Shown one piece after another: positions 2,242-27,701 of a DNA stretch of 32,000 nucleotides. The stretch is from Thermofilum pendens Hrk 5. Lineage in GTDB: Archaea > Thermoproteota > Thermoprotei > Thermofilales > Thermofilaceae. The stretch lies in contig NC_008698.1 of the NCBI RefSeq assembly GCF_000015225.1, forward strand, positions 600,001-632,000, in the 5' to 3' direction. The position numbers and the translations under genes are program-made. Each line of letters begins with the position of its first letter. Positions within the stretch are counted from its first letter, which is position 1. The notes under the pieces are model-generated. The model made no database searches, had not been told where the DNA came from, and saw only the letters and a list, made by a program, of their open reading frames with translations.

Positions 2242-4134
2242 ATGATGACCGACTATGGGGGGCTGAACGACAGCTATCTCAGTATATCTTTTCGTAAGAG
2301 AAGAACCCTGACGGAGGCGGAGTTCAGAGAGTTCTTGGAGCTTGCGAGAAAGGTGGCGAACTACGACCCAGAAAGCAAGGAGTGGAGGATTTCTGTGGAG
2401 AAGGTTTCCTCGCTAGACAACGAGCTGGAAGAAGTACTCGAAAAGCTGAAGAAACTGTCAACCTTGAGTGACGCGGATCTTCAGAGGGTGGTCGCATATA
2501 CCCGTGGGAGGAGCGCGGGTAGGGTTTGCTGGATAGGCTACGATCTAAGGGTGAAGGGTTTGCCTCCCACCGTCGTGGAGGCACTGCGGAATGACACGAC
2601 TCTAGGCGGGCTCTTCCTAGTGGAGGGACAGACGCCGAGGTTGCGTTCCGTGCTTTTTCTCCACGAAGCATCACGCGCTTTGAAGGAGAAGTTCAACGTT
2701 TCTTTAAGCTTCGACGAGAAGATGACCAGCGTGGAGGTGCGTAGGGAGAATGGCGTGCTTGTCTGGCGTTTCCAGTACCTTGACAAGGTGCTAGCTGAGA
2801 AGCTTGTAGAGGCCTCGACGTTGAAATTCTTCGTAGAGAAGGCAGTGCTAAACGAGGAGGGTGAGTTCGAAGGCACGGAACTCGTTGAGAGAAGAATGAG
2901 GACTGCACACGTCGACTGGCAGAGGAAGGAAGTCTCGACACCGGTGGCTCTACTAGATAGCCTTAAAACCTTTCTCGAAGCGCACGGCTTTAGGGTTCTC
3001 GTCTCGATAGAGGAGAAGCCGCCCATAACTGTTCCCCTTGAACACAACTTTAAGCTCTTACCGCACCAGGTAGAAGCGTATAAACAATGGACGAGGAAAC
3101 GTAGGGGCACCATTTCGATATTTACTAGAGGGGGGAAGTCGTTCATAGCACTCGAAGCTATCTACTCGCTGAGAAAGCCTACCATAGTCTTTGTCACTAC
3201 TCAGGAACTCGTTGAAACTTGGATTAGCTACTTCGAGAAGTACCTTGGGCTACCGCGCTCATTTGTAGGTGTTCTTGGCGGGGGAGAGCAGAAAATAAGG
3301 GAGATCACGGTCGCAACCTACAGCAGTGCGGTTAAGTACATAGATCTCATTAAGTCAAGGTTTGAGCTAGCGATATTTGACGAGGCTCACCACGTACCGG
3401 CGGCTACGTTCAAGCAGGTAGCGCTTGGTGTCGATGCCCTGTACAGAATGGCCCTTTCCGCCACTCCCGAGCGGAGGGATAGGAACGAAGGGCTTCTTTT
3501 CACGCTGTGCGGAGGTTTGCTGTACCGGCTTACGTACGAAGATCTCGTGAGGCTTAAGGTCGTAGCTCCCATAGAGGTCCTGGATGCCGTCTTCGTGGAG
3601 GGACCAGAGGAAAAGAAGAAGAAGCTCCTGGAGATTCTGCGCCGACATGCCGACGGAAAAGTAATCGTGTACACGCAGTACCTCCAGACTGCGGAAGATG
3701 TCTATGACTTGCTGAGGAGGAACGGCTTTAACGCGGAGATAGTAACAGGGGATACACCGGCGCACAAAAGAGAGCTCGCCTTCAAGAACTTTGTCGAGGG
3801 CAGGTCTAACGTAATAGTCACGACTACCGTCCTCGATGAGGGAATAACTGTGCCGGACGCCGACGTCGCCGTGATCTACGAGGGGACAGGCGAAGGAAGA
3901 CAGATGATACAGAGGATAGGGAGAGTTCTAGGCTATTACCCCGGGAAGACGGCCAAGGTGTACGAGATAGTCGACTTAACGAACCCCAGAGAGAAATCAG
4001 CCTATAGGCGCAGGTCGTGGGTTAGAGAGCTTTACAGGGTCAGGGGTCTAGAGGAAATTGTGAGGAGAGTTAAAGAAGGGGACGAGGAGGGGTATAAGCC
4101 CAGCTATCAGTTTCGCATAGATTACTTTGATTAG
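2242..4134 (+). CDS. SF2 DEAH-box helicase, XPB/Rad25 (ERCC3)-like, with about 280-aa uncharacterised N-terminal region
   Basis: Walker A TRGGKS, Walker B FDEAHH, motif III SATP followed by RED-like ERRDRNEG, motif V TTTVLDEGITVPDA and motif VI QRIGRVLG. A near-perfect SD AGGAGGTGATC (2221-2231) lies 10 nt upstream of the ATG. Confidence 0.8.
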   Translation: MMTDYGGLNDSYLSISFRKRRTLTEAEFREFLELARKVANYDPESKEWRISVEKVSSLDNELEEVLEKLKKLSTLSDADLQRVVAYTRGRSAGRVCWIGYDLRVKGLPPTVVEALRNDTTLGGLFLVEGQTPRLRSVLFLHEASRALKEKFNVSLSFDEKMTSVEVRRENGVLVWRFQYLDKVLAEKLVEASTLKFFVEKAVLNEEGEFEGTELVERRMRTAHVDWQRKEVSTPVALLDSLKTFLEAHGFRVLVSIEEKPPITVPLEHNFKLLPHQVEAYKQWTRKRRGTISIFTRGGKSFIALEAIYSLRKPTIVFVTTQELVETWISYFEKYLGLPRSFVGVLGGGEQKIREITVATYSSAVKYIDLIKSRFELAIFDEAHHVPAATFKQVALGVDALYRMALSATPERRDRNEGLLFTLCGGLLYRLTYEDLVRLKVVAPIEVLDAVFVEGPEEKKKKLLEILRRHADGKVIVYTQYLQTAEDVYDLLRRNGFNAEIVTGDTPAHKRELAFKNFVEGRSNVIVTTTVLDEGITVPDADVAVIYEGTGEGRQMIQRIGRVLGYYPGKTAKVYEIVDLTNPREKSAYRRRSWVRELYRVRGLEEIVRRVKEGDEEGYKPSYQFRIDYFD

Positions 4135-6631: not shown

Positions 6632-8746
6632 GTGCCGTCGCAGAAAGCCTTGGCAGTATATGCAATGCTAATAGTGTATGTCTTGGTTAGCTTGTATGCT
6701 AACTGTGTGTTAGCGTTGCAAGTACAGGGCACGCCGGTGGCGAGCTTTGCCAATGCTTCTGGAGTGAACGTGACAGTTATCATTGTGGGGTATAACGGTG
6801 AGGATCTTTCTCAACACCTAGTTGATGCGTGGAAACTTAACATTGGGAATCTAACCAAAACATGTCCAAGTGTGAGGTGCACGATAAACCTAACCAGTTA
6901 TGGGGTATACAACGTCACAATAGAGTACCTAAAAGTCCTAGTGTTCAAGAGCCCAGTCAACATTAGTAACTCTACCACTATAAAACTTAGAGTGAACATA
7001 ACAAAGGTCGAAGTAAAACTCTATACCAACGACACGATGCCTCTCCAACTGGACAACTTTTCGGGCTACTTCGACGTAAATGGATTTCAGGTACCGTTTG
7101 ATAAGAACACACCGGTTTATCTGCCCTTTGGAACCTTTAGGTACTTTGTCTCCTTCTCAAACATTAACAGGACAGGCTCCTTCACGGTTGATGGTAGGAG
7201 TACGCGGCTAGATATAGTGCTACCCATCATTAGCAGTGCTGAGATAGTATTTAGGACTCTTGACAATGAAAGCCCGGAAGGATTTAACGCCTCGCTAACA
7301 CTGCGCTACGGGGAGAGAATCGTTCTTAAAGAAGGACCTCCTCTCAGAGATAAGTACTCGCTTTCCTACCCGCTTGCAGGTCTATACCACTTGAGGGTGG
7401 ACTATAGGGGACAAACTGTGTACGAGGGCGACTTCACTATCGACAAGAATAATCGAAGGGTGGAGTTGAAGATTGGAGTTTTTAGGCGCGTAGAGATTCG
7501 GGTGCTCACGGCCGACAATAGGCCGCTGTACTCTGACGACATTTCCTTCGAGGTCGTATCCCCGCTTAACGATAGGATGAAGGTCACTCCGAACCAGGAC
7601 GGCTACTTTAGCTTGGAGTTTTGCCCCTACAACTGGAGGTATACCTTACGGGTGAAAAGCAATACTCTGGGGGAAGTTTTCACGTACGATTTCTATGTGA
7701 AGTCCCCCTCTGTGGAGGTGCAGACAGAGCTCGTATCAACTTATCTTAGGGTCTCTCCGGGAGGATCTGCTAAACTGCCCGGAAACCTCTCCGTGACACT
7801 CTACTACATTTCTAGCTCGCCTATAGTCGTAAAGGTGGTATCGCTTTCACGCGTCGTCGACCAGGTAAACGAGCCAGTGGGCTTCCTGCCGATCAGGGGT
7901 AGGTACAGGGTGGTTGTCGAGTACGCGGGTTACAGGTGGACAACGGATTTCGACAGCGTGGCTCACGGAATTCTAGTGGTTACTGTGCCATTATTCGATG
8001 TTAGAATCTCGGCTGTCGACCTCGATGGCAACCCGCTCTACGGATGCATTGTTGCTTTACGCGTAGGGCAACCCTCACGGCTAGTTTTCCGAGACCAGTT
8101 GCGCAATGGGCAGGCATTCTTCAGCTTTGTTCCAAGCGACTACGGGTCCCTCTCCGTTAACTGCTCCGGTCTCGAAGTACTATCTGCGAGCATTCTTCCC
8201 AAAGAAATTGAAGCCGGTAGCATCAACGTCACGGCACGCGTTAAGACATTCCTGGTCACGGTGAAGGGGTGGTTTAACCGCGCGCTAACAGGGGCGAACG
8301 TCACCCTCGAGGTGAAATACAAGGGAACGGTTCTAACCTTCTCTACGACCACGGACTCCACTGGGACAGCGGTTCTTAGAAACGTGCCTCTACCCCTTGG
8401 AAGCAACGTTACCCTCACGGTGAGCTACGGAGGCTTCAGCGAGGTGAGAAACGTCTATGAGGGATCACCTCGCCAGGAGGTATTCCTCGACGTCTTCCTG
8501 GATACCCCCTTCCTAAAGGCGGGTCTCTACCAAACGGTGCTTCTTCTAGCGACTATAGTCTTCGTAGCCGCAGCATCCTTCGTTGTAGCGCGTAGAGTTG
8601 CACGCATAGCTACGTTCAGGTCGATGTTCGAGGAAGGGGGCTACTTCGAAGAAGAAAAGGAGGGCTTCTTGGAGAGGTTAAAGAAACTCTTCGGGAAGAA
8701 GGAGGAGAAAGAGGAGGAAGAGGAGAGCCTGGATATATTTGTGTAG
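6632..8746 (+). CDS. Type I membrane surface glycoprotein with tandem beta-sandwich (CarboxypepD_reg-like) repeats
   Basis: N-terminal signal-like hydrophobic segment (ALAVYAMLIVYVLVSLYANCVLA). 18 N-x-S/T sequons by eye. Repeated segments resemble VTLEVKYKGTVLTFSTTTDSTGTAVLRNVPLPLGSNVTLTVSYGGF. C-terminal TM LLLATIVFVAAASFVVA is followed by RRVAR and a K/E-rich cytoplasmic tail. Confidence 0.75.
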   Translation: MPSQKALAVYAMLIVYVLVSLYANCVLALQVQGTPVASFANASGVNVTVIIVGYNGEDLSQHLVDAWKLNIGNLTKTCPSVRCTINLTSYGVYNVTIEYLKVLVFKSPVNISNSTTIKLRVNITKVEVKLYTNDTMPLQLDNFSGYFDVNGFQVPFDKNTPVYLPFGTFRYFVSFSNINRTGSFTVDGRSTRLDIVLPIISSAEIVFRTLDNESPEGFNASLTLRYGERIVLKEGPPLRDKYSLSYPLAGLYHLRVDYRGQTVYEGDFTIDKNNRRVELKIGVFRRVEIRVLTADNRPLYSDDISFEVVSPLNDRMKVTPNQDGYFSLEFCPYNWRYTLRVKSNTLGEVFTYDFYVKSPSVEVQTELVSTYLRVSPGGSAKLPGNLSVTLYYISSSPIVVKVVSLSRVVDQVNEPVGFLPIRGRYRVVVEYAGYRWTTDFDSVAHGILVVTVPLFDVRISAVDLDGNPLYGCIVALRVGQPSRLVFRDQLRNGQAFFSFVPSDYGSLSVNCSGLEVLSASILPKEIEAGSINVTARVKTFLVTVKGWFNRALTGANVTLEVKYKGTVLTFSTTTDSTGTAVLRNVPLPLGSNVTLTVSYGGFSEVRNVYEGSPRQEVFLDVFLDTPFLKAGLYQTVLLLATIVFVAAASFVVARRVARIATFRSMFEEGGYFEEEKEGFLERLKKLFGKKEEKEEEEESLDIFV

Positions 8747-19137: not shown

Positions 19138-19365
19138 CTATTCGTGCGCTACTAAAGTTACCGTTTGCTCAACGTCTTTTAATCCTCGAACCATGGAGAT
19201 TATTTTGTCGAGCTCTGCAAGCGAAGGTGCTTGAATTTTGATGATAATGTCCCAGAGCCCGTAGGTAATGTCTACGTCGTTTACGAACGGGAATGTTTTT
19301 AGCTGGTTTGCCACATCGTACTCTTTTCCTGGACGCGTGTTAATCAGTATGTAGCCTTTTACCAT
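19138..19365 (-). CDS. Stand-alone Lrp/AsnC-type ligand-binding (RAM) domain protein
   Basis: 75 aa. MVKGYILINTRPGKEYDVANQLKTFPFVNDVDITYGLWDIIIKI is a typical RAM-domain beta-alpha-beta-beta-alpha-beta pattern. TATA-like AAGTATTTAAAGC lies about 30 nt upstream on the minus strand. Confidence 0.8.
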   Translation of the reverse strand: MVKGYILINTRPGKEYDVANQLKTFPFVNDVDITYGLWDIIIKIQAPSLAELDKIISMVRGLKDVEQTVTLVAHE

Positions 19366-19503: not shown

Positions 19504-19716
19504 TTAGCCGCCGGGTTTCAGCGTGAAGTAAGCACGAGTAGCATTCGTAGTTTTCGCCGTTGGCTGAAGGGGCTGTGAGCCTGTCTTTTGAAGTTCTCCC
19601 ATAGGGGAGAGCTCGAGGGTGGGGGTCTCGGCTGGGATGCTCCGGGGGGCTGTCAGGAGCGATGATAGTAGCAATATTGCCACCAGTAATAGGAACCCGT
19701 AGAGAACTTTATCCAT
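19504..19716 (-). CDS. Small secreted or membrane-anchored protein (70 aa), last gene of the minus-strand trio
   Basis: N-terminus MDKVLYGFLLLVAILLLSSLL, then a P/T-rich tail with one sequon (NAT). The ATG overlaps the upstream stop (ATGGATAA) and is preceded by GGTGAT. Confidence 0.5.
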   Translation of the reverse strand: MDKVLYGFLLLVAILLLSSLLTAPRSIPAETPTLELSPMGELQKTGSQPLQPTAKTTNATRAYFTLKPGG

Positions 19717-20809
19717 GGATTATCACCAGGTTTCTACCGGCGGATAGCCCTGCCAGCGCCGCGAGCGCCGCGGCTGGTAGCCATAGGGGGAGGAGTAACG
19801 GTGTGCCGAAGGAGAGCGCCGAGATGCCTCCCGAGTACGCCATGCATGCGAACAGCAGGTAGGCGAGGAACCACTGCTCCAACCCTCTTACATCGGCTGG
19901 GACGCCGACGCTCTGCAGTAGCTCGACCCGTGCGATGCTCTCGAGAAGCTGTGAGATGAGGCTGGAGGCGAACCCGAGGAGAAAGAGACCTACCAGGTTT
20001 GTCAGCCCATTCAAGAGTGCTCGTGCTTGGAGCGAGTGGAGGATGCGGAGGATCTTCTCGTAGGTATTCTTCAGTCCGAGCATCGCTTCTCGGTCCGTTC
20101 CCCAGTAAGCGGATAGGAAGAGGCTTAGCCTGACGCTCGGAGTAAGGTTGCTCACGAACTTTCCTGCGAGGAGTTTCTCTGGCTTCACGGTTTTAAAGGC
20201 GTGGAACGGGGCAGAGGCCACCCGGACGAGTAGCTCTAGGTTCTCGCGTAGCTCCCGCTGAACCCTTGTCACTAGTGTGAAGTTATAAAGAAAACCGGGC
20301 AGGGAAAACGCTGCGAGCGCGGCGAGCACCAACGCTGGGGGGAGGCTTAGAAGGGCTAGCGAGGCGAAGGGTAAGGCGGCGAGTATTACCTGGATAGGAC
20401 CGACTTTGAGGGCTCTTAGCTCTCTGGGGTACACCGAGCTATAAGTGAATATTATTACGGCGTTAAGGGTCATGAGCGCAAGGGTTAGGGGCGCTACCAT
20501 TCTTGGGTTGAAGAGAGCCAGGGAGTACAGCATTAGAGGCGCGCTGAGGAGTGTTATGGAGAAGATCTCTGCCAGCGACTCGGACTTCCTGCTGAAAGTC
20601 TCCAGCTTCGTCTCCAGCCTTGACACTTTCTCGCCGAGAATGGTTCGCAGCGCGTGACGTGAACCGCTCTCCTCATCGCTACGCGCAGCTTCTAGAAGGC
20701 TTCTCGAGGCCTTGTACGAGTAGCCGTGCTCCTCGAGCCACTTGAAGACGTGGGAAGGCGGCGCCTCCGTGTAGGAGAGAAGGAGAAGTAGCTCCAAGTC
20801 TTCGAGCAA
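19709..20809 (-). CDS. Polytopic membrane protein, possibly TadC/FlaJ/GspF (T2SS-F)-like platform protein
   Basis: 366 aa. Two roughly 80-100-aa helical soluble segments, each followed by clusters of TM helices, which is the duplicated architecture of T2SSF proteins. TTG start is preceded by GGGGTG. The family assignment is by architecture only and is not motif-proven. Confidence 0.6.
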   Translation of the reverse strand: MLEDLELLLLLSYTEAPPSHVFKWLEEHGYSYKASRSLLEAARSDEESGSRHALRTILGEKVSRLETKLETFSRKSESLAEIFSITLLSAPLMLYSLALFNPRMVAPLTLALMTLNAVIIFTYSSVYPRELRALKVGPIQVILAALPFASLALLSLPPALVLAALAAFSLPGFLYNFTLVTRVQRELRENLELLVRVASAPFHAFKTVKPEKLLAGKFVSNLTPSVRLSLFLSAYWGTDREAMLGLKNTYEKILRILHSLQARALLNGLTNLVGLFLLGFASSLISQLLESIARVELLQSVGVPADVRGLEQWFLAYLLFACMAYSGGISALSFGTPLLLPLWLPAAALAALAGLSAGRNLVIIHG

Positions 20810-20826
20810 AAAGAAACACCCCTATT

Positions 20827-21201
20827 TTAAGATCTTAGGAGTGTGACCTTTATTGCCCCGTACTTCGTCTCGATGATAGCGGTCTTCGCGGAGGTAGGAG
20901 CGGACGTTAGAGTCAGTGCAGAGGTGCACTTAGCCACGTCCCCGTTCCTCAGTAGTGCAGGAGTGCAAGTCAGCTGAGCAGGGCCCGCGTTAAGGTCGGG
21001 GATAGTTATGTTAGCACCGGTAAGGTCGGCGGGCGTGCTCCCTATGTTCTGGAGGTACACTATCACCTGGTAAGAGGTCCCAGACCCTGTGAGGAGTGCG
21101 TCGCCCGCCTGAACCAGTACAGGCCTGTTGGTCGCGCCGCTCGCAACACTGTAGAGGAAGTAGCCTATCAGTGCGACGACCGATAGTGTGACGATTAACA
21201 T
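20827..21201 (-). CDS. Archaeal type IV pilin-like protein (N-terminal hydrophobic helix plus beta-rich domain)
   Basis: MLIVTLSVVALIGYFLY is followed by QVIVYLQNIGSTPADLTGANITIPD. This V-x-L-x-N-x-G...DL...I-x-I pattern is common in archaeal pilin-like (DUF1628-type) proteins. No basic pre-sequence in the annotated frame (see finding on 21199-21238). Confidence 0.65.
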   Translation of the reverse strand: MLIVTLSVVALIGYFLYSVASGATNRPVLVQAGDALLTGSGTSYQVIVYLQNIGSTPADLTGANITIPDLNAGPAQLTCTPALLRNGDVAKCTSALTLTSAPTSAKTAIIETKYGAIKVTLLRS

Positions 21202-21205
21202 GATG

Positions 21206-21225
21206 CTTCTTCCGACTTCTTCGGA
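21206..21225. repeat. Imperfect 10-nt tandem duplication in the 5' leader of the pilin-like gene
   Basis: Plus strand CTTCTTCCGA (21206-21215) and CTTCTTCGGA (21216-21225), 9/10 identical. It also folds as hairpin TCCGA-N5-TCGGA. Confidence 0.9.
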
Positions 21226-21256
21226 CGTTTTCTCTCACCTCGCTTGATCTTTACGG

Positions 21257-21322: not shown

Positions 21323-21577
21323 GTGGTGAGCGTTGTGAGGTTCTTCGTGCTCGTTGCTTTAGCGTCGCTCCTCGTCTCTGCTCGTCTAACAGGGGAGCAT
21401 GCCACAACGCACGCCGGGACCTGCTTCTGCCTCGCCGAGGTACAACGAGGAGCCAGGGTAAAGCCTCTAAGCAATAACTGTCCGATGGTACTCCTCGTGG
21501 AGTTCGAGCCTGCTTCCGGCGGCTCTACGGAGAGGCTCGTTCTCTGCGATGGTTACGTGAAGATAGGGGAGGGGTGA
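21323..21577 (+). CDS. Small secreted or anchored Cys-containing protein (84 aa), first gene of the plus operon
   Basis: N-terminus VVRFFVLVALASLLVSA is signal- or anchor-like, with 4 Cys. There is a 7-nt gap to the next gene. Confidence 0.5.
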   Translation: MVSVVRFFVLVALASLLVSARLTGEHATTHAGTCFCLAEVQRGARVKPLSNNCPMVLLVEFEPASGGSTERLVLCDGYVKIGEG

Positions 21578-21584
21578 AAAGGTT

Positions 21585-24500
21585 TTGAAGTCGAGGGTAG
21601 GAGCTTTTCTACTGGTACTCGCCGTTACCGCGCAGAGCGTGACTGTAGCGGCACCGGGCCCCGCCGCGATCCAGCTAGCTATAGGCTTCGTTAGGGCGCC
21701 GAGCGATTCCTGGCCTCTTTGGAGCAGGACTATCTTCACGCCTTACCTCTTGTTCGTACCCAGCAGCGCGTATGTGGATAACGTCGTCGTGGGAATGGGC
21801 AGTAACTACGACTACTTCCTGGCGGGAAACGATAGCGTATCCTTTAACGTGCAGTACGACGGAGCGGTCAAGCTGAGGGGGTCGCTGAGCTTTGTTGCGA
21901 ACATTACCGTTAGCTACGGCGGTAGGAACGTGACCGTAACTCTACCCTCCTCCGGTAGCGCGAAGCTAAATCTTCCGCCTGGGGAGCTGGTCACGATTCT
22001 TGCACCCTCCGTGGTCAACGCAAGGTACAGCTTCCAGTACACCGACGTGGGGATAAGCGTGAAGATAAGCGGGGCTCGAAAGGTCTTCGTGACGACATTG
22101 AGGCCTTTCATCGGAGTCTACAACTTCTCGATGCGCTACGTAGCCGGCGTTTACTGCTCTTCCTACCCCGTGGAGATCCTCGCGTGTAGAACCACGGACT
22201 ATGCAAGCTGCAAAGCCCTATACCGAGGAGAGATCAAGCCTCAGGGCTGGTGGTACGGCTACATCCTTCAACCAGTACAGTTGCTCAACTTCTCGCTGAA
22301 CAACGAGTACCTCGGTCTAAGCATCACGTTCTGTAGCCCCGAGAAGAACTACGTCCCTATACCCGCTTGGATCTCCAGCTACGTGAACCTTCCACTATTC
22401 TTCTCGCACTGGCTCCTGCCGAACGGGACCCGGGTGTACTCAACGAGGCTAGTACTTCGAGCAAATGGCGCGGTGAGCCTCCGAGCCGTCTACCGCCCTC
22501 TACCGGCCATTCTAGCCGTCAAAGCAGACAGGGATGTGGCGCCGGCCCTCAAGGGCTCTCTCTCCCTCCAGTTGCCGGGAGCAACTGCGGCTCCGGCGGA
22601 GGCCCTGCTGGGGTCAGCGTTGATTACGGATCCGAGGCTTGAAGGATGGGGTGTGGAGTGGGGGTACCCCGACGCTTACCCCAGGCAACCGCCCTGGCAC
22701 TATGCGGACGAGTACACGGCCGTGAGGCGGGGTGTCGTCTACGCTTTCTCCACGATCTCCTACAGGCTCTACGCTGAGGAGAGCCTCAGGAGGTACTACA
22801 GGTGGAGCGCATTAGATTATCGCTTCTCGATAGACCCGAACTACTATCGAGGTGGTGTTTTGTACGACTCCAGGTACCCGTTCGTTCTGCTCGGAGAAGC
22901 TATAGGGAGCCCGCCCGCCTCCAACGGGAAGATCAACGTGTCAGTGACCGGTATACGTGTTGACGCGGGCTTCTTGGGGTACTTCGTTTCCGGTACACTG
23001 GAGGTTTACAGGGTTCCCTTGAAGGAGAGCCTTAGAAGCCTCGGCGTACCGCTGTTCAACGGGAGTCTCTCTGCCGCGCTGGGCACGCTCAATGCACTTC
23101 TCAGGAACGGCACGCTGGGTGAGGAGGATCTCGTCGCCGTATACCGTGCCGACCGCGCGGACACTCCGATCGTGGTCGCAAACGCTAGGCTGGCGGCAGA
23201 GAAACTCGTAGAGCTAACGTCCGTGTACGAAATATGGCCTGGGACACGCGTATCCGTGTACAGAGTAAACCTGTCACGCGCAGAGCTCGTCTACAAGGAA
23301 AGCCTCAGGAACCTAGGCATACATCGGGACGGCGACGTCGGTCGTCCCGCTGTCATAAGCAACGTGGGGGAAGGCAGGCTCTGGGTCATCCTGAGAGTCC
23401 GCCTCTACGGCTATCCCGAGATGGCATTTTTCTCGGCCTCGTTCAGCGTCTCAGTTAGCAACTTCACGGACTACAAATTCAGGGGGTGGAAAGTGTACCG
23501 GGCGACGTTCGAGCCGCGCCCCGACTGGATCGACTCCTGGGGGTTCAGACCGACAACTCTACTCTTTGAGACTGCTAACCCTCTCGAGGGCTTAGTGAGC
23601 CCCGGGGAGGTCGTGTTGGCTGTAGCCGAATACGGAGCTCTTACAAGGGCTACGTCGAACATTCTCAAAGTTCCCGTTGGCGTAGACCTGGCACCCTTTG
23701 ACTCTGCTGGCTTCACTGGGCTCGCAAAGGGGCTTTACTCCTTTTACACAAATGCAACAGTCTACGGGCTATCGAGTGAAGGTGTCCTCGTCAAGCTTGA
23801 AGACGCGCGAGGAACTCTGAGAGTCAACGAGGACTACGCTAAGGCAAGGAAGGTGAAGCCGCGCGATACGGAAAGCGTGAGCAGGTTGCCTTTGCTCGTG
23901 TTACCCAACGGAACCGCCGTCAGGGTTTTCTCAATAGAGGCTTCGAGAAAACCATCCATCAACGTCTTGGAGCTAAACTCCACTGTTTACCTTTTCGAAG
24001 TCGTAGAGCCCAGCTTGAGCATCTCGCGTATTGAGTACAACGAGACCCACGTGAAGATAGCCTTCCAGGTGGAACCCCCGTGGAGCGGCATGAGGGTCTC
24101 CGCTTTCTTAGGAGGCAGGCTTGTCGCAGAAGTGCCGGCGAGCCTTGGCTCAATATCCCTGCCCTACGAAGCGTTCCAGGAGGAGCTGAGCGCGGAGAAC
24201 CTGACGCTACTACTCACGTGGGGCGGCTCGCTCTCCGCTGGACACAAAGCCGTAAGCCTGGCAGTCCTGAGAGCTATACCGCACGTGAGGTTTACCGTAA
24301 TCAACGGCTCCTGGAAGGCTTTCTGGGTCTCGACGTACACAGTCGACAAAGGAGGCGTTGTGAAGAAGCTCGAGGAAGCTCTCTTAGAGAGAGGGCTAAG
24401 ACCCGTTGGAGGAAGGCTCTACCTAGAGGTAGCCGGGTGCGGCTCGAAATTCCCGGCCTTGTGGAGAGCCTTCCTCGAGCCTGGCCACAGCGTAGCGGTG

Positions 24501-24596
24501 CCTGCATACGACACAACCAGGTACTGCCTCTACGTGTACTTCATCCCGGAGGGTAACACGGGGGTGGTGGTCGCGCCATGGGAAGAAAGGCTCTAG
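21585..24596 (+). CDS. Large secreted glycoprotein (1003 aa), no recognisable domain
   Basis: Sec-type signal MKSRVGAFLLVLAVTAQS. 17 N-x-S/T sequons by eye, Y/V/S-rich, no C-terminal TM. TTG start is preceded by the strong SD GGGGAGGGGTGA. Confidence 0.8.
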   Translation: MKSRVGAFLLVLAVTAQSVTVAAPGPAAIQLAIGFVRAPSDSWPLWSRTIFTPYLLFVPSSAYVDNVVVGMGSNYDYFLAGNDSVSFNVQYDGAVKLRGSLSFVANITVSYGGRNVTVTLPSSGSAKLNLPPGELVTILAPSVVNARYSFQYTDVGISVKISGARKVFVTTLRPFIGVYNFSMRYVAGVYCSSYPVEILACRTTDYASCKALYRGEIKPQGWWYGYILQPVQLLNFSLNNEYLGLSITFCSPEKNYVPIPAWISSYVNLPLFFSHWLLPNGTRVYSTRLVLRANGAVSLRAVYRPLPAILAVKADRDVAPALKGSLSLQLPGATAAPAEALLGSALITDPRLEGWGVEWGYPDAYPRQPPWHYADEYTAVRRGVVYAFSTISYRLYAEESLRRYYRWSALDYRFSIDPNYYRGGVLYDSRYPFVLLGEAIGSPPASNGKINVSVTGIRVDAGFLGYFVSGTLEVYRVPLKESLRSLGVPLFNGSLSAALGTLNALLRNGTLGEEDLVAVYRADRADTPIVVANARLAAEKLVELTSVYEIWPGTRVSVYRVNLSRAELVYKESLRNLGIHRDGDVGRPAVISNVGEGRLWVILRVRLYGYPEMAFFSASFSVSVSNFTDYKFRGWKVYRATFEPRPDWIDSWGFRPTTLLFETANPLEGLVSPGEVVLAVAEYGALTRATSNILKVPVGVDLAPFDSAGFTGLAKGLYSFYTNATVYGLSSEGVLVKLEDARGTLRVNEDYAKARKVKPRDTESVSRLPLLVLPNGTAVRVFSIEASRKPSINVLELNSTVYLFEVVEPSLSISRIEYNETHVKIAFQVEPPWSGMRVSAFLGGRLVAEVPASLGSISLPYEAFQEELSAENLTLLLTWGGSLSAGHKAVSLAVLRAIPHVRFTVINGSWKAFWVSTYTVDKGGVVKKLEEALLERGLRPVGGRLYLEVAGCGSKFPALWRAFLEPGHSVAVPAYDTTRYCLYVYFIPEGNTGVVVAPWEERL

Positions 24597-25138
24597 GATC
24601 CGTTACCGCGACGCTACTATTGCTACTGCTCTCAACAATAACAGTCCTCCTCGCATACCCAGCGCTCCTGGGCTCCCGCGGAGTAGCGAGGGAAAGGCTA
24701 GACACGCGAACCCTGCTTCGCCTGTTGCATGACTTGGAAAACGGGGGCATCGTAGAGCTACCAGTCGAGGCAAAGCTTCTCGGAAACGCGTCGTTCATAG
24801 CAATTAACGGGAAGGTTGCATACGCGTTCAACTCTGCAGTGATCGTTTTCCCTCAGTGCGAAAGTGCACCTTTGAGCGGTCAACTCTTCAAGGTAGTGCG
24901 GGAGGGCTCCTCCTGTACTGTAGTGTTCAGGCCCTACCTGAACCTGTCTGCCGGCGAAGTAGTAGCGGTGGCGGCTTACGGCTCAGGGCTTTACAGCAGG
25001 CTAAACTCCACCAGTGTTCTCCGCTTTTTCCGGGGCTTCGTAGACGAGCTCGTCATCGGGCAGGAGAGCTACGCTGTCGCCGCGCCTTTGAAGCTTAAGG
25101 TTAAAGTGATAGAGGTGAGGGGTGTTGAGGGCGGTTGA
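24578..25138 (+). CDS. Pilin-like protein (186 aa)
   Basis: MGRKALGSVTATLLLLLLSTITVLLAY has a short basic leader, K-A followed by a long hydrophobic helix. Three sequons. The ATG overlaps the upstream gene by 19 nt and is preceded by GGGGGTGGTGG. Confidence 0.7.
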   Translation: MGRKALGSVTATLLLLLLSTITVLLAYPALLGSRGVARERLDTRTLLRLLHDLENGGIVELPVEAKLLGNASFIAINGKVAYAFNSAVIVFPQCESAPLSGQLFKVVREGSSCTVVFRPYLNLSAGEVVAVAAYGSGLYSRLNSTSVLRFFRGFVDELVIGQESYAVAAPLKLKVKVIEVRGVEGG

Positions 25139-25385
25139 GGAGTCTATCTTCACGTTCTTCGAGCTCCTTCTCCTCGTAGGCATCTTGACGTACGCCTCCG
25201 CTACTGCTCCCGGAGAGAACTCCCTCGCGCTGGTATACGGGATAAGCCAGGCGCTACCGGAAGGCTCCTGCGCCGTTATAATGTCCGCGAGCCCCCTAAG
25301 TCTTGGGAACGCGACGCTCGGAAAAAGTGTCGCTGTCTGCAAGGTGGGGAACGAGACGGTGGTGAAGCCGTGGCCAGAGGGGTAG
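25122..25385 (+). CDS. Pilin-like protein (87 aa)
   Basis: MLRAVEESIFTFFELLLLVGILTYA has a 4-residue leader ending R-A, then a hydrophobic helix. The FTFFE segment resembles the bacterial FTLIE prepilin core. GTG start is preceded by AGAGGTGAG, with a 17-nt overlap. Confidence 0.6.
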   Translation: MLRAVEESIFTFFELLLLVGILTYASATAPGENSLALVYGISQALPEGSCAVIMSASPLSLGNATLGKSVAVCKVGNETVVKPWPEG

Positions 25386-25651
25386 TGGCGGCGCTCATAG
25401 CGACCATAGTCCTCTTCACCGCGGTGTCTGTGTACACACGGTACTACGGCTCCCCTATCTACGCCGTAAAGGTACAGAGAAACCTCGCCGTGATAGCAGC
25501 ATACGTGATGCTACACTCGAATTGCACCGACGTTGGATACTACCTTTCAAAGGTGAACTCTACTCAACCCCTGCCGGGCCAGACTACGTCCTGGGTTGTT
25601 ACCTGGTGCAACGGGACGCCTGTTGTGAGGGGGTTCTCGTGGTCTCCTTGA
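25370..25651 (+). CDS. Pilin-like protein (93 aa), best class III signal match
   Basis: MARG|VVAALIATIVLFTAVSVY has R-G followed by V-V and a hydrophobic stretch resembling the archaeal pilin core G-x-SPVIATxLLI. GTG start is preceded by GGTGGTGA, with a 16-nt overlap. Confidence 0.65.
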   Translation: MARGVVAALIATIVLFTAVSVYTRYYGSPIYAVKVQRNLAVIAAYVMLHSNCTDVGYYLSKVNSTQPLPGQTTSWVVTWCNGTPVVRGFSWSP

Positions 25652-26214
25652 AGAGGCGCCGCGCAGCTATAGGTCTTCTCGCAGTAGCCCTACTAAGCTT
25701 AGCTGTTCTGCAAAATTCGAGGTCGAGTAGCGAGGTGAGGGTGTTGTACTACGGTGAGAACGTCTACATGGCTTACCTCGCGGCCGCCAGAGAAGCTTGC
25801 GCATCGAACATGAGCGTCGAGGAGCTTGTAGACGGGTTGAGCGACTACTTCGGCCCGTTAAGGCTAGCAGATACGCGCGTTGCACGCTTCGAGCGCTCAG
25901 ACAAACTTTCCGGAGTAAAGTACTGCAATGTCACCGTTACAACTAAACTCGGCGCGCGCGCTAGCTTCGAGCTGAACTACACGTACACATTTCTGGGCTT
26001 CTTCGCGGAGACCGGAACAGGGAGAATAGTCAAGGTGTACCGAATAAACGCTTACCAGCGTTTTAAGATCCCCGAGTACCGTTACGCCATACTACTCCAG
26101 GTGGACTTAGTGCCTACTTGCGAGAGCATCACCTACAATGGGACGCTGGAAGTGCGGATAGACACTCCCTGCGTCTTGAGGGACAAGTGGGGCTTTACGC
26201 TTACGGTGCCCTAG
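25639..26214 (+). CDS. Pilin-like protein (about 190 aa)
   Basis: I place the start at GTG 25639 (SD GAGGGGGT upstream) or TTG 25648 (TTGA overlap with the upstream stop). The track start at 25522 would lie inside the upstream gene. N-terminus is VSLKRRRA|AIGLLAVALLSLAVL. Confidence 0.65.
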   Translation: MVSLKRRRAAIGLLAVALLSLAVLQNSRSSSEVRVLYYGENVYMAYLAAAREACASNMSVEELVDGLSDYFGPLRLADTRVARFERSDKLSGVKYCNVTVTTKLGARASFELNYTYTFLGFFAETGTGRIVKVYRINAYQRFKIPEYRYAILLQVDLVPTCESITYNGTLEVRIDTPCVLRDKWGFTLTVP

Positions 26215-26571
26215 ATGGAGCTGGAGGAAGCGGTTCTCTCGGTGCTTCTGCTTTCCGCCTCATTCCTTATCTACACCTACTGGCTCCAGCTAGCCAATAC
26301 TTGGAGCGGCGACGCGGCGTCTTTAATCAGGGATGTCTGCGCAGTGTCGCTGTCCCCGCCGGGCACGAGCATGGAGGGGGTCTACGACGTCGATGTGTGC
26401 GTTTCAGGCAATGTTATCGCAACCCGTTACCCCGTGTACTCGTACTGCTTTCCGAGGATTAACGAAACCGCGATAAAAGCCCCAGTGAAGTCTGACGAGC
26501 GTTGCTTCTCTGGAAGGATAAGACTGAAGATCACTAAGGCTGGTAACGTGGTTACTCTGGAGAGGGGCTAG
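26215..26571 (+). CDS. Pilin-like or N-terminally anchored protein (118 aa), last gene of the operon
   Basis: MELEEAVLSVLLLSASFLIYTYWL (E-A-V-L then a hydrophobic stretch), with 4 Cys and one sequon. The ATG directly abuts the upstream TAG. Confidence 0.6.
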   Translation: MELEEAVLSVLLLSASFLIYTYWLQLANTWSGDAASLIRDVCAVSLSPPGTSMEGVYDVDVCVSGNVIATRYPVYSYCFPRINETAIKAPVKSDERCFSGRIRLKITKAGNVVTLERG

Positions 26572-27701
26572 GCGACTATCTCGACTATGTCGCCGTCTTC
26601 TAGTACGAAGTCTTTTCCAACTCTCTGCGGGCTGAAGGGAAAGCTTTCCCGCCATACCTTGGCGTACCTGAAGTTTTCATAGAGGTAAGAGTGAATGATC
26701 TTCGCCACGTCTGCCACCTTCGCGCCGCGCTTCACCACGACGGGTCTTTTCTCGACGTTCCCCGTCTTCGGATTTCTCGTGTAGACGCGTATGAGGTCGA
26801 GCTCCCGAAAGATGTACGTAGCTATCTCGTCGAACCTGAGCTCTCTGCACCTCTGCGCCGAGAACTCGTAGACTGGTACGCCGTAGTTGCTCAACCTTTC
26901 CTTCAACGCTTTCACGTGGTCATTGGGTGCCAAGTCTACCTTCGTTAGAACGGCGACTGTGGGCCTGTAGACATAGGAGCCGAAGATAGCGTCTTCCACG
27001 TCGTCGAGCGTAGCCCTACCCTGAATCCGGACGACTGCGTGGTAAACGTTGTACTCTCTTAAAAGCGCCACAACATCCTGGACAGTGGCGCCCTCCAGGT
27101 CTCCCACGACAGTAACCCCTCCGGATGCTCTTCGCTCGATCTCTACTATCGCTTTCGGCCTCTTCACGGATATCCTGTTTTCTTCGAGTAACCGTAGCAT
27201 CCCGGCTAACTGCTCCTCAGCATTCGCGGTTGAATCTAGAGTTACTATAAGGGCGTCTGCGTTCCTAGCCAAAGCCATCAGCCTGCCAGGGTCGGTGAAG
27301 CCCAGAAACCCGGGCGTATCGACGAGCTGGAAATACACTCCGAGCCAGGAGACCATCCCGGGGACTGGGCGATCCTGTGACGGCTTGCTAACACCAGTCA
27401 GGCATCTAAATAGGGAGGTTTTCCCTGAGCCGAGGCTACCGATTAGCACCACCTGCACGTCCCCCTCTTTTTCAACGAAGAACTGTTCGCCGCCACCAGC
27501 CCTGCGCTTCCTCCTCTCCTCTATCTCCCTGCGAAGGGCTGCTATCTGTCTCGTCACCTGCATTCGAAGTCTCTCCGTCCCCTTGTGCTTCGGAACTGCT
27601 GACAGGAATTCCTGGAGGGCTGCAAGCTTTTCCTCTGGTGTCCTCGCCTCCATAACTCTTTTCCACTTGCTTTTAGCCTCGGCCGGGAGATTCGCAGGCA
27701 T
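26568..27701 (-). CDS. DRG/Rbg-type OBG-family GTPase with C-terminal TGS domain
   Basis: G1 GSLGSGKTS, G3 DTPG, G4 TKVD and a TGS-like C-terminus ending GDIVEIVA. TATA-like AAAAATAATTTT lies about 30 nt upstream on the minus strand. Confidence 0.9.
   Translation of the reverse strand: MPANLPAEAKSKWKRVMEARTPEEKLAALQEFLSAVPKHKGTERLRMQVTRQIAALRREIEERRKRRAGGGEQFFVEKEGDVQVVLIGSLGSGKTSLFRCLTGVSKPSQDRPVPGMVSWLGVYFQLVDTPGFLGFTDPGRLMALARNADALIVTLDSTANAEEQLAGMLRLLEENRISVKRPKAIVEIERRASGGVTVVGDLEGATVQDVVALLREYNVYHAVVRIQGRATLDDVEDAIFGSYVYRPTVAVLTKVDLAPNDHVKALKERLSNYGVPVYEFSAQRCRELRFDEIATYIFRELDLIRVYTRNPKTGNVEKRPVVVKRGAKVADVAKIIHSYLYENFRYAKVWRESFPFSPQRVGKDFVLEDGDIVEIVA

What the first reader, a model, noticed from the sequence alone, without database searches (positions are those of the whole stretch)
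24578..26571. Five overlapping pilin-like cistrons: three match the archaeal class III signal pattern and one carries a bacterial-style FTxxE core
The N-termini are MGRKA-LGSVTATLLLLLLSTITVLL, MLRA-VEESIFTFFELLLLVGIL, MARG-VVAALIATIVLFTAVSV, (V)SLKRRRA-AIGLLAVALLSLAVL and MELEEA-VLSVLLLSASFLIY. From memory, the FlaFind-type pattern is [KRDE][GA][ALIFQMVED][ILMVTAS] followed by a hydrophobic stretch. The 93-aa, about-190-aa and 118-aa proteins fit it exactly, and the other two fit approximately. The 87-aa protein contains FTFFELLLLVGIL. This is strikingly similar to the bacterial type IV pilin and pseudopilin core FTLIELLVVIAI, with Glu at +5 relative to Phe, although the residue before Phe is Ile rather than Gly. 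The mature parts are mutually dissimilar, as expected for a set of distinct minor pilins rather than paralogous major subunits.
Basis: partly seen in the sequence, partly recalled or inferred. Interest (0 to 1): 0.65.

Follow-up and report, generated by a model that had tools for sequence, protein, structure and literature searches.

The report
Thermofilum pilus-locus accessory operon
Five small, tightly packed genes in a heat-loving archaeon (Thermofilum) are real, are conserved in its relatives and sit in a pilus-type locus, but only one has a consistently conserved archaeal prepilin signal, so this is an unnamed example of a known kind of pilus accessory gene set, not a surprise.

Summary
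Five co-oriented ORFs (186, 87, 93, 188-191 and 118 aa) lie at 24578-26571, and their N-termini read exactly as quoted. Three match the FlaFind 1.2 motif, against about 6% of N-terminal-TM ORFs in unrelated archaeal loci.

The operon is conserved in order and content in nine Thermofilaceae lineages. It follows a roughly 1000-aa Sec-type secreted protein. It is divergent from a UpsF/TadC-like membrane protein and a PilA-like small protein. No secretion ATPase lies nearby.

Ortholog comparison weakens the pilin reading:
- **p190** keeps a canonical [KR]x[GA]↓hydrophobic site in 9 of 9 lineages.
- **p87** keeps a non-canonical [DE][SA]↓ site plus an invariant Glu at +6.
- **p118** keeps E[A/T]↓ in 7 of 8.
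- **p93's** "RG" is not conserved (G, T, E or A at that position).
- **p186's** "MGRKAL" comes from its overlap with the invariant C-terminus of the upstream gene, and two lineages have lost it.

The "bacterial FTxxE core" is not supported: there is no Gly at -1 and F/T are not conserved.

AF2 models of p186 and p190 show an N-terminal helix plus a globular domain. Neither has a significant PDB neighbour.

Best reading: a lineage-specific accessory or minor-pilin-like module of a type IV pilus-like system, as Makarova et al. 2016 predicted in general terms. It is a new member of a known kind, of moderate to low interest.

The parts
19138..19365 (-). Small Lrp/AsnC ligand-binding-domain protein (75 aa). 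It is a conserved neighbour at the edge of the locus and a possible regulator.
   Evidence: Pfam AsnC_trans_reg E=2.7e-10. The same gene sits at the same place in L003, L090 and L094-95.
19504..19716 (-). Small single-TM protein (70 aa here, about 45 aa in relatives), immediately downstream of and overlapping the TadC-like gene.
   Evidence: The N-terminus MDK[VTGA]LY[GA] plus a TM segment is conserved in L003, L090 and L095. It has no family hit.
19709..20809 (-). UpsF/TadC-like polytopic membrane protein (366 aa, about 5-6 TM segments). It is the candidate pilus assembly platform.
   Evidence: NCBIfam UpsF (NF046075) E=2.6e-4 for the window protein and 3.2e-8 for the L003 orthologue, both matching the same model region, about 173-317. 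TM count. Both scores are far below the equivalog cut-off, and there is no Pfam T2SSF hit.
20827..21201 (-). PilA-like small protein (124 aa from the ATG), the candidate major pilin. The orthologues carry a leader, MSEE(V/S)G[RK]S, before the hydrophobic helix.
   Evidence: Alignment A4. Weak hits to Pfam Pilin_N (E=0.022) and Arch_flagellin (E=0.024) for the L003 orthologue. The PDB sequence hits include the chain 6w8x, named 'pilin' (single sequence, E=1), and the many-chain entry 8q30, which was the best hit of the profile search (E=0.47). Neither is significant.
21323..21577 (+). Small Cys-containing protein with an N-terminal hydrophobic segment (84 aa), just upstream of the large gene.
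   Evidence: Called as a gene in the public assembly. It is weakly similar to the 95-aa ORF at the same position in L090 (26% identity, pairwise E=2e-6).
21585..24596 (+). Large secreted protein (1003 aa; Sec-type signal peptide, 17 N-x-S/T sequons). It is the first large gene of the operon and a candidate adhesin or tip protein.
   Evidence: No Pfam or NCBIfam hit. Orthologues of 720-988 aa occur in all the longer loci. Only the C-terminal ~300 aa are conserved with Infirmifilum (26% identity, E=8e-25). The C-terminus PW[VIE][EQ][RK]L is invariant.
24578..25138 (+). p186: an N-terminal TM helix plus an all-beta domain.
   Evidence: AF2 gives pLDDT 81.6, with H6-30, a low-confidence stretch (residues 26-37), H43-55, then beta strands. 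No PDB neighbour has E<0.05; the best are Ig-like folds with TM<0.26. Its first six codons lie in the overlap with the upstream gene. It has no sequence homologues outside the family.
25122..25385 (+). p87: an acidic N-terminus, a [DE][SA] site, a TM helix with an invariant Glu (E14), and a small domain with a conserved Cys pair.
   Evidence: In eight lineages only E14, P46, G48, C50, S55 and C73 are invariant. There is no pilin or N_methyl HMM hit.
25370..25651 (+). p93: a very short leader (MAR/MR), a TM helix and a small conserved domain (the ERNxAxIAA motif and a Cys pair).
   Evidence: Nine lineages. The residue after the invariant Arg is G, T, T, G, G, G, E, E, A.
25648..26214 (+). p190: the one member with a canonical, conserved class III-type signal ([KR]x[GA] followed directly by the helix). 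It is the best minor-pilin candidate.
   Evidence: G or A at -1 in 9 of 9 lineages, and the N-terminal 28 residues are more conserved than the rest (0.45 against 0.38). AF2 gives pLDDT 80, with H2-23, H28-52, then four long antiparallel strands. The family has only 6 representatives in 1.84 billion proteins.
26215..26571 (+). p118: an acidic N-terminus ending E[A/T], a TM helix and a Cys-containing domain. Its N-terminus resembles that of p87.
   Evidence: Eight lineages, with A, T, E, A, T, A, T, A at -1. hhalign of p87 against p118 N-termini gives E=1.5e-4.

Best explanation
The five cistrons, together with the upstream 1003-aa secreted protein (and probably the 84-aa ORF before it), form one translationally coupled operon. 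I read this operon as the accessory module of a Thermofilaceae-specific type IV pilus-like system.

The divergent operon next door supplies three genes: a PilA-like candidate major pilin, a UpsF/TadC-like membrane platform and a small TM protein. The assembly ATPase and the prepilin peptidase are encoded elsewhere.

Inferred mechanism:
- The large protein is exported by Sec.
- p190 is inserted into the membrane, cleaved by the PibD-type peptidase at [KR]x[GA]↓, and taken into the filament as a low-abundance (minor) pilin.
- The other four are N-terminally anchored partners. p87 and p118 have an unusual acidic leader ending in E-[S/A/T], and p87 has an invariant intramembrane Glu. p93 and p186 have no conserved cleavage site.
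- Together with the large protein, these four form a priming, tip or base complex for the filament. This parallels the bacterial minor-pilin plus PilY1 sets and the archaeal FlaF/FlaG proteins.

Shown here: the genes, their conservation, the synteny, the N-terminal motifs, the helix-plus-globular-domain models and the TadC-like neighbour.

Inferred: processing, incorporation into a pilus and the role of the complex.
For: - The five-gene order is the same wherever all five genes are covered (W, L003, L083, T. adornatum loci, L092, L094-96). The short contigs L085/86, L091 and L093 hold consecutive parts of the same order.
- Start and stop codons overlap, which points to a single transcription and translation unit.
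- The whole locus is syntenic between Thermofilum and Infirmifilum, including the TadC-like, PilA-like and Lrp-like genes.
- The TadC-like protein hits the UpsF model in two of three orthologues, in the same model region.
- The p190 cleavage-type motif is invariant, and its N-terminal helix is its best-conserved part.
- Three of five genes match FlaFind against a 6% background.
- Conserved Cys pairs and sequons suggest extracellular domains.
- The AF2 models (pLDDT about 80) have an N-terminal helix plus a beta-rich domain.
- Makarova et al. 2016 (PMC4858521) describe T4P loci in Thermoproteales, and similar loci in two Thermofilum species, that combine a large signal-peptide protein with fast-evolving small cysteine-containing proteins predicted to be minor pilins. 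Some of those loci lack the ATPase and TadC genes. Their supplementary list of secretion ATPases places three T. pendens proteins in clade 4.
Against: - No pilin or archaellin HMM hits any of the five.
- Neither model has a significant structural neighbour among solved pilins.
- The canonical site is conserved in only one of the five families. p93 has E or T at -1 in four lineages. The p186 leader is explained by the gene overlap and is dispensable.
- No secretion ATPase lies in this window or in the two longest related loci.
- The evidence for the TadC-like and PilA-like neighbours is weak in absolute terms: UpsF scores of 20-33 bits against a cut-off of 400, and Pilin_N at E=0.022.
- An uncleaved signal anchor would look identical in AF2.
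Confidence: 0.5

Rival explanations
1. The five proteins are uncleaved signal-anchor proteins, or Sec/SPase I-processed ones. They form a membrane-anchored cell-surface complex around the large glycoprotein, such as an adhesin, an S-layer-associated complex or a FlaF/FlaG-like anchor. They are not filament subunits. Their position next to the TadC/PilA genes reflects co-function at most, or simply conserved gene order.
For: - Four of the five families lack a conserved canonical class III site.
- In both AF2 models the TM helix is separated from the folded domain by a low-confidence linker (residues 24-34 in p190, 26-37 in p186). That fits an anchor or a cleavable signal.
- There are no pilin HMM hits and no pilin structural neighbours.
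- No ATPase lies in the locus.
- The whole block sits in a strongly syntenic housekeeping region (Topo VI, GTPase, CDC48), so adjacency alone is weak evidence.
Against: - p190's [KR]x[GA] sits directly at the start of the helix in 9 of 9 lineages. This is hard to explain for a plain anchor.
- p190 has no conserved small residues at -3 and -1 after its hydrophobic region, so an SPase I site is unlikely.
- The invariant Glu inside the p87 helix suggests a helix-helix contact of the kind seen in pilin cores.
- The FlaFind motif is enriched.
Confidence: 0.33
2. All five are true class III (PibD-processed) minor pilins. The Thermofilum peptidase accepts S, T and even E at -1 and acidic residues at -2, so the non-canonical sites are real cleavage sites.
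For: - The candidate major pilin next door has [RK]S↓[IL]M, with Ser at -1, in all four lineages seen.
- p87 has [DE][SA] in 8 of 8 lineages, and p118 has E[A/T] in 7 of 8.
- FlaFind 1.2 already allows D or E at -2.
- PibD is described as flexible around the cleavage site and able to process leaders of 3-4 residues (PMC4187195).
Against: - p93 has Glu at -1 in two lineages, and p118 has Glu at -1 in one.
- p186 has no leader at all in T. adornatum. In other lineages 6-13 polar residues, some of them charged, lie between its 'site' and the helix.
- No experimental data exist for any Thermofilaceae peptidase.
Confidence: 0.12
3. The 87-aa protein is a bacterial-type (PilD-substrate) pilin or pseudopilin with a G↓F-T-x-x-E core, acquired horizontally.
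For: The only support is the string FTFFE in the window sequence.
Against: - The residue before the putative +1 is I, T, I, L, I, V, L or L in the eight orthologues, never G, A or S.
- F and T are not conserved.
- No N_methyl or prepilin-type HMM hits.
- The gene is a conserved member of a Thermofilaceae-only operon.
Confidence: 0.02

Closest known systems
Predicted minor-pilin/adhesin sets of crenarchaeal type IV pilus-like loci (Makarova, Koonin & Albers 2016, PMC4858521; the Thermoproteales clades 4B, 4E and 4G, and the 'Thermofilum loci' without an ATPase)
   Same: - A large signal-peptide protein is followed by several small, fast-evolving, cysteine-containing secreted or membrane proteins.
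- A TadC-like gene and a PilA-family gene lie adjacent.
- The ATPase may be encoded elsewhere.
- The families are lineage-specific and have no detectable similarity to other pilins.
   Different: - I could not verify that this exact locus is in their tables, because the Thermofilum rows were cut from the stored supplement.
- The five families here have no Pfam or NCBIfam model. Orthologues of three of them that were looked up (p190, p186, p118) are annotated 'hypothetical protein' where named.
- Only one of the five has a conserved canonical class III site.
Bacterial minor pilins with PilY1 (FimU-PilVWXE/PilY1), and the T2SS GspH-I-J-K tip complex
   Same: An operon of four or five small, mutually dissimilar pilin-like proteins plus one roughly 1000-aa secreted protein. 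Some members have an acidic residue in the N-terminal helix and some lack it.
   Different: - There is no sequence or HMM similarity.
- There is no G↓F/M...E5 signal.
- The Glu is at +6 from the only plausible site, and only in one family.
- The similarity is an analogy of architecture recalled from general knowledge. It was not tested structurally here.
Sulfolobus Ups/Aap/Bas systems (UpsF, UpsA/B, BasABC)
   Same: The platform protein is detectably related to UpsF. Small pilin-like genes lie beside the platform gene. BasABC is a precedent for several small class III proteins that assist the assembly of other surface proteins (PMC4187195).
   Different: - The scores are far below the UpsF equivalog cut-off.
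- No UpsE/BasE-type ATPase is in the locus.
- The five proteins are not in the PilA family.
Archaellum FlaF/FlaG
   Same: Single N-terminal TM helix plus a beta-sandwich domain (the p186 model). FlaF is a monotopic membrane beta-sandwich protein that anchors the filament machinery by binding the S-layer (PMC4425475, abstract listed); that FlaF/FlaG keep their N-terminal segment uncleaved is from general knowledge.
   Different: There is no sequence or Foldseek match to FlaF or FlaG among the top hits. Makarova's genome table appears to show no archaellum ATPase for T. pendens, though I read the column meaning by inference.

Membership tests
Archaeal class III signal-peptide proteins (FlaFind-positive, PibD/FlaK substrates) | An N-terminal motif [KRDE][GA][ALIFQMVED][ILMVTAS], followed directly by a hydrophobic stretch | tested here: inconclusive
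   In the window sequence the motif is met by p93 (RGVV), p190 (RAAI) and p118 (EAVL). It is not met by p186 (KALG) or p87 (RAVE). The motif definition comes from PMC4307647.
Archaeal class III signal-peptide proteins (FlaFind-positive, PibD/FlaK substrates) | The cleavage site (a small residue at -1, a charged residue at -2 or -3) is conserved in orthologues | tested here: inconclusive
   - p190: 9 of 9 have G or A, so the feature is met.
- p87: [DE][SA] in 8 of 8, which is non-canonical.
- p118: A or T in 7 of 8, E in one.
- p93: G or A in 5 of 9, T in two, E in two, so the feature is not met.
- p186: the leader is encoded by the overlap with the upstream gene and is lost in two lineages, so the feature is not met.
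Archaeal class III signal-peptide proteins (FlaFind-positive, PibD/FlaK substrates) | Actual cleavage by a prepilin peptidase | not testable with these tools
   This needs a PibD assay or N-terminal MS. No peptidase gene lies in the window.
Archaeal PilA / Pilin_N (DUF361) / archaellin N-terminal domain families | A match to Pfam Pilin_N (PF07790), Pfam Arch_flagellin (PF01917) or the NCBIfam archaeal pilin/flagellin N-terminal models | tested here: not met
   None of the five window proteins, nor their Infirmifilum orthologues, hits at E<=0.1-1. Only the neighbouring PilA-like protein gives weak hits (E=0.022-0.024).
Type IV pilin fold (N-terminal alpha-helix plus a beta-rich head) | The predicted structure has a long N-terminal helix and a globular beta domain, and resembles solved pilins | tested here: inconclusive
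   The p190 and p186 models (pLDDT 80 and 81.6) have the helix and a globular domain. Foldseek against the PDB gives no hit with E<0.05 and no pilin among the top hits. The other three proteins were not modelled.
Type IV pilus-like gene locus | Linkage to assembly genes: a secretion ATPase, a TadC/PilC/FlaJ-type platform and a major pilin | tested here: inconclusive
   The platform is present as a UpsF-like protein (E=2.6e-4 and 3.2e-8). A PilA-like gene is present. The ATPase is absent from the window and from the L003 and L090 loci.
Bacterial type IV pilins/pseudopilins (PilD substrates, N_methyl domain) | Gly at -1, Phe or Met at +1 and Glu at +5, with an N_methyl (PF07963/TIGR02532) match | tested here: not met
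   In p87 the residue before the putative +1 is I, T, I, L, I, V, L or L. F and T are not conserved. The Glu lies at +6 from the only conserved small residue. No HMM hits.

The most novel reading that the evidence does not exclude
p87 and p118 define a previously unrecognised type of prepilin-like N-terminus. It has an acidic leader ending in E-[S/A/T]↓. In p87 it also has an invariant intramembrane Glu at +6, which would play the role of bacterial Glu5. Under this reading, the five proteins and the roughly 1000-aa secreted protein form the first identifiable archaeal pilus tip or priming complex, an independent analogue of the bacterial minor-pilin/PilY1 module.
Probability: 0.15. Interest if true: 0.6.

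Novelty: new member of a known kind. Interest (0 to 1): 0.35.

Why it matters
Archaeal type IV pilus-like systems are numerous, but almost nothing is known experimentally about their minor pilins or tip complexes. This locus offers a compact, conserved test set:
- one canonical class III protein;
- two proteins with an unusual acidic leader, one of them with an invariant intramembrane Glu;
- two proteins without a conserved cleavage site;
- one large secreted partner.

The set could define which N-termini a crenarchaeal PibD really accepts, and whether archaeal pili are primed by a minor-pilin complex as bacterial pili are.

The locus also carries a practical warning. A FlaFind match in a single genome is weak evidence, because two of the four apparent or near matches here disappear when orthologues are compared. 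One of them is an artefact of overlapping reading frames.

Tried and rejected
- **Genome-collection scan with the 1003-aa protein.** It found no relatives. I used the neighbouring GTPase as a synteny anchor instead, and that found the Infirmifilum locus.
- **Single-sequence homology search with p186.** It found only p186 itself.
- **Concatenated profile.** I joined four of the small families and the PilA-like protein into one profile to recover all orthologues in a single search. Nothing scored, so the search was wasted.
- **Structure prediction with locus-derived orthologues.** I got round this by obtaining protein ids through an exact cluster look-up.
- **PDB sequence searches.** Profiles of the PilA-like and TadC-like proteins gave only non-significant hits.
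- **Makarova et al. supplementary tables.** I could not place this locus in them, because the Thermofilum rows are missing from the stored copy.
- **Original FlaFind and PibD-specificity papers** (PMC1797317, PMC161584). Neither is held.
- **Ideas rejected.** Spurious ORFs, because the genes are conserved in nine lineages. A bacterial-type prepilin for p87. Paralogy among the five, because hhalign finds the mature parts unrelated. A fusion origin for the 1003-aa protein from the Infirmifilum 475-aa and 720-aa genes, because there is no similarity to the 475-aa protein.
- **Sigma-70 promoter and terminator scans.** They were uninformative for an archaeon.

Full report
**1. Observation**

- 24578-25138 (186 aa)
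- 25122-25385 (87 aa)
- 25370-25651 (93 aa)
- 25648-26214 (188 aa from TTG, or 191 aa from GTG at 25639)
- 26215-26571 (118 aa)

Gene calls on public assemblies of the same sequence give the same five genes. The first gene overlaps the stop of an upstream 1003-aa gene by 19 nt. The next three junctions overlap by 17, 16 and 4 nt, and the last pair abuts as TAG ATG. This is one translationally coupled unit.

It matches p93 (RGVV), p190 (RAAI) and p118 (EAVL). It fails for p186 (KALG) and p87 (RAVE).

As a rough background I applied a FlaFind-like rule to ORFs of at least 100 aa with an N-terminal hydrophobic segment, taken from 76 unrelated archaeal loci. It hit 16 of 256 (6%), and some of those hits are real archaellins. 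Three of five neighbouring genes is therefore unlikely by chance (binomial p about 0.002). The background includes spurious ORFs, so the figure is indicative only.

**2. Source and context**

The p190 protein occurs on a contig of 1,781,889 bp. From my own knowledge, that is the size of the Thermofilum pendens Hrk 5 chromosome. The adjacent GTPase is 62% identical to an Infirmifilum MAG and 60% identical to a Thermofilum MAG.

The surrounding genes are housekeeping genes: Topo VI B and A, a DRG-type GTPase and CDC48.

Immediately upstream, on the opposite strand, lie three genes:
- A 124-aa PilA-like protein (20827-21201).
- A 366-aa polytopic membrane protein (19709-20809). It hits the NCBIfam UpsF model at E=2.6e-4, and its Infirmifilum orthologue hits the same model region at E=3.2e-8.
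- A small conserved TM protein (19504-19716).

A small Lrp/AsnC-domain gene follows.

The PilA-like protein gives only weak hits: Pilin_N at E=0.022, Arch_flagellin at E=0.024, and non-significant PDB sequence hits to the chain 6w8x, named 'pilin', and to the many-chain entry 8q30. Its sequence layout does match that of archaeal pilins: a leader, a hydrophobic helix and a '...Y-x-V-x-(V/L)-(Y/W)-L-Q-N-x-G-S...' beta domain.

No secretion ATPase or prepilin peptidase lies in the window, or in the two longest related loci.

**3. Conservation**

I recovered the operon from nine lineages, using the GTPase as a synteny anchor, profile searches with p190, and contig look-ups:
- the window;
- Infirmifilum sp. 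(L003);
- L083;
- T. adornatum (L084, L088-90);
- L085-87;
- L091;
- L092;
- L093;
- L094-96.

Gene order is the same in every lineage wherever the contig covers the genes: large protein, p186, p87, p93, p190, p118. The complete locus, with the TadC-like, PilA-like and Lrp-like genes, is syntenic in L003, L090 and L094-95.

Against the Infirmifilum orthologues, the five small proteins are 29-40% identical and the conserved C-terminal part of the large protein is 26% identical, compared with 62% for the neighbouring GTPase. The proteins are real and evolve fast.

Each family keeps conserved Cys pairs and N-x-S/T sequons after the hydrophobic segment. The p190 family has only six representatives among 1.84 billion cluster representatives. 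p186 has no detectable relative by a word-indexed search. The orthologues of p190, p186 and p118 that were looked up are annotated 'hypothetical protein' where named.

hhalign finds no relationship among the mature parts. It does find a similarity between the N-terminal segments of p87 and p118 (E=1.5e-4).

**4. What the orthologues say about the signals**

- **p190.** [KR]x[GA] directly precedes the helix in 9 of 9 lineages (RA|A, RA|S, RG|V, KG|V, KG|V, VG|V, RG|S, KA|Y, RG|V). The first 28 residues are more conserved than the rest (0.45 against 0.38). No conserved small residues at -3 and -1 follow the hydrophobic region, which argues against an SPase I site. This is a convincing class III-type N-terminus.
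- **p87.** The canonical motif is absent, but [DE][SA] is followed by a hydrophobic stretch in 8 of 8 lineages. A Glu exactly six residues later is invariant; it is one of only six invariant residues in the protein. The bacterial-type reading is rejected. The conserved intramembrane Glu is real and unexplained.
- **p118.** E[A/T] occurs in 7 of 8 lineages and E-E in one. An acidic residue at +6 occurs in only two lineages.
- **p93.** After the invariant Arg the residue is G, T, T, G, G, G, E, E, A. The window's FlaFind match is therefore not a conserved feature.
- **p186.** The first six codons (M-[GD]-R-[KE]-A-L) are the +2 frame of the invariant C-terminus PW[VIE][EQ][RK]L-stop of the large protein. 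Where the Pro codon is CCC rather than CCA (T. adornatum and L092), the ATG disappears and the gene starts downstream without any charged leader. In other lineages 6-13 polar or charged residues separate the 'site' from the helix. The near-match is a by-product of the overlapping frames.

**5. Structure**

The AF2 model of p190 (five-sequence alignment, pLDDT 80, pTM 0.71) has helix 2-23, a low-confidence break, helix 28-52, then four long antiparallel strands and several short ones.

The model of p186 (seven sequences, pLDDT 81.6) has helix 6-30, a low-confidence stretch (residues 26-37), a short helix 43-55 and an all-beta domain.

Foldseek against the PDB gives no hit better than E=0.06 for either model:
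- For p190 the best hits are unrelated folds that include MHC class I heavy chains and NTF2-like proteins.
- For p186 the best hits are NAD kinases, followed by Ig-like domains, all with TM<0.26.
- No type IV pilin or archaellin appears among the top 50 for either; the only 'pilin' entries are Gram-positive major pilins for p186 (E 0.7-0.9).

An uncleaved signal anchor would look the same, so this does not discriminate.

**6. Interpretation**

The best-supported reading (confidence about 0.5) is an accessory operon of a Thermofilaceae-specific type IV pilus-like system.
- The divergent operon provides the candidate major pilin, the platform and a small TM partner.
- This operon provides a Sec-exported large protein, a candidate adhesin or tip protein whose C-terminal ~300 residues and last six residues are conserved.
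- It also provides five small partners. p190 is a good PibD-substrate candidate. The other four are either non-canonical substrates or plain anchors.

This architecture is the one Makarova, Koonin and Albers (2016) inferred for Thermoproteales:
- a large signal-peptide protein;
- several small, fast-evolving, cysteine-containing 'minor pilins';
- a PilA-family major pilin;
- a diverged TadC;
- loci without an ATPase, including loci in two Thermofilum species that they tentatively link to an orphan ATPase clade.

Their supplementary list of secretion ATPases places three T. pendens proteins in clade 4.

The main rival (about 0.33) is that the five proteins are anchors or Sec substrates of a surface complex that is not part of a filament. 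A broader-specificity version, in which all five are cleaved, gets about 0.12. The bacterial-pseudopilin idea gets about 0.02.

**7. Novelty and score**

The kind of system is known from comparative genomics. These particular families are unnamed and have not been characterised experimentally. I rate the finding a new member of a known kind, with interest 0.35.

The most novel reading that the evidence does not exclude is this: the acidic-leader pair p87/p118, with the invariant Glu at +6, is a new class of prepilin-like signal, and the set forms an archaeal tip or priming complex (probability about 0.15, interest 0.6 if true).

Noticed in passing
window 21201-21234 (- strand): The PilA-like gene has lost the canonical start of its leader in this genome. 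The orthologues begin ATG-(S)-E-E-(V/S)-G-[RK]-S-[IL]-M. The window reads ACG at the orthologous Met codon, with a TGA stop three codons upstream. Translation must therefore start at the internal ATG, which gives a leaderless 'MLIVTLSVV...', or use a non-canonical start.
   Followed up: partly
window 24578-24596; L003 7991-8009; L083 1600-1618; L090 around 8934; L095 around 8937: The large protein ends in an invariant PW[VIE][EQ][RK]L-stop in every lineage. The +2 frame of this stretch encodes the 'MGRKAL/MDREAL' start of the next gene. The C-terminal hexapeptide may be a sorting or assembly signal of the large protein.
   Followed up: partly
window 21323-21577 (+): An 84-aa ORF with an N-terminal hydrophobic segment and four Cys lies just before the large gene. 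It is weakly similar to a 95-aa ORF at the same place in T. adornatum (L090 5691-5978). Infirmifilum (L003 4444-5871) has an unrelated 475-aa secreted protein at this position.
   Followed up: partly
window 19504-19716 (-); L095 3911-4051; L090 about 3900-4060; L003 about 2700-2830: A small single-TM ORF overlaps or abuts the stop of the TadC-like gene. Its N-terminus, MDK[VTGA]LY[GA] plus a TM segment, is conserved in four lineages. It is probably a real micro-protein of the platform operon.
   Followed up: partly
window 26568-27701 (-), compared with L003 10001-11131 (+), L083, L093 and L094-96: The DRG-type GTPase gene next to the operon is convergent with it in T. pendens and T. adornatum. 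It is co-directional in Infirmifilum and in three other lineages. This is a single-gene inversion within otherwise conserved synteny.
   Followed up: no
L092 221-1465: In one divergent lineage the position of p186 is taken by a 414-aa protein. Its N-terminal region contains '...ARRALGWLPAAVILMIV...', the same R-[RK]-A-L-G string as in the window's p186, but here it is not encoded in a gene overlap. I did not test whether this protein is homologous to p186.
   Followed up: no
window 6632-8746 (+): A 704-aa protein with a CarboxypepD_reg-like domain (Pfam E=2.9e-10). It is possibly another surface protein and appears unrelated to the locus studied.
   Followed up: no
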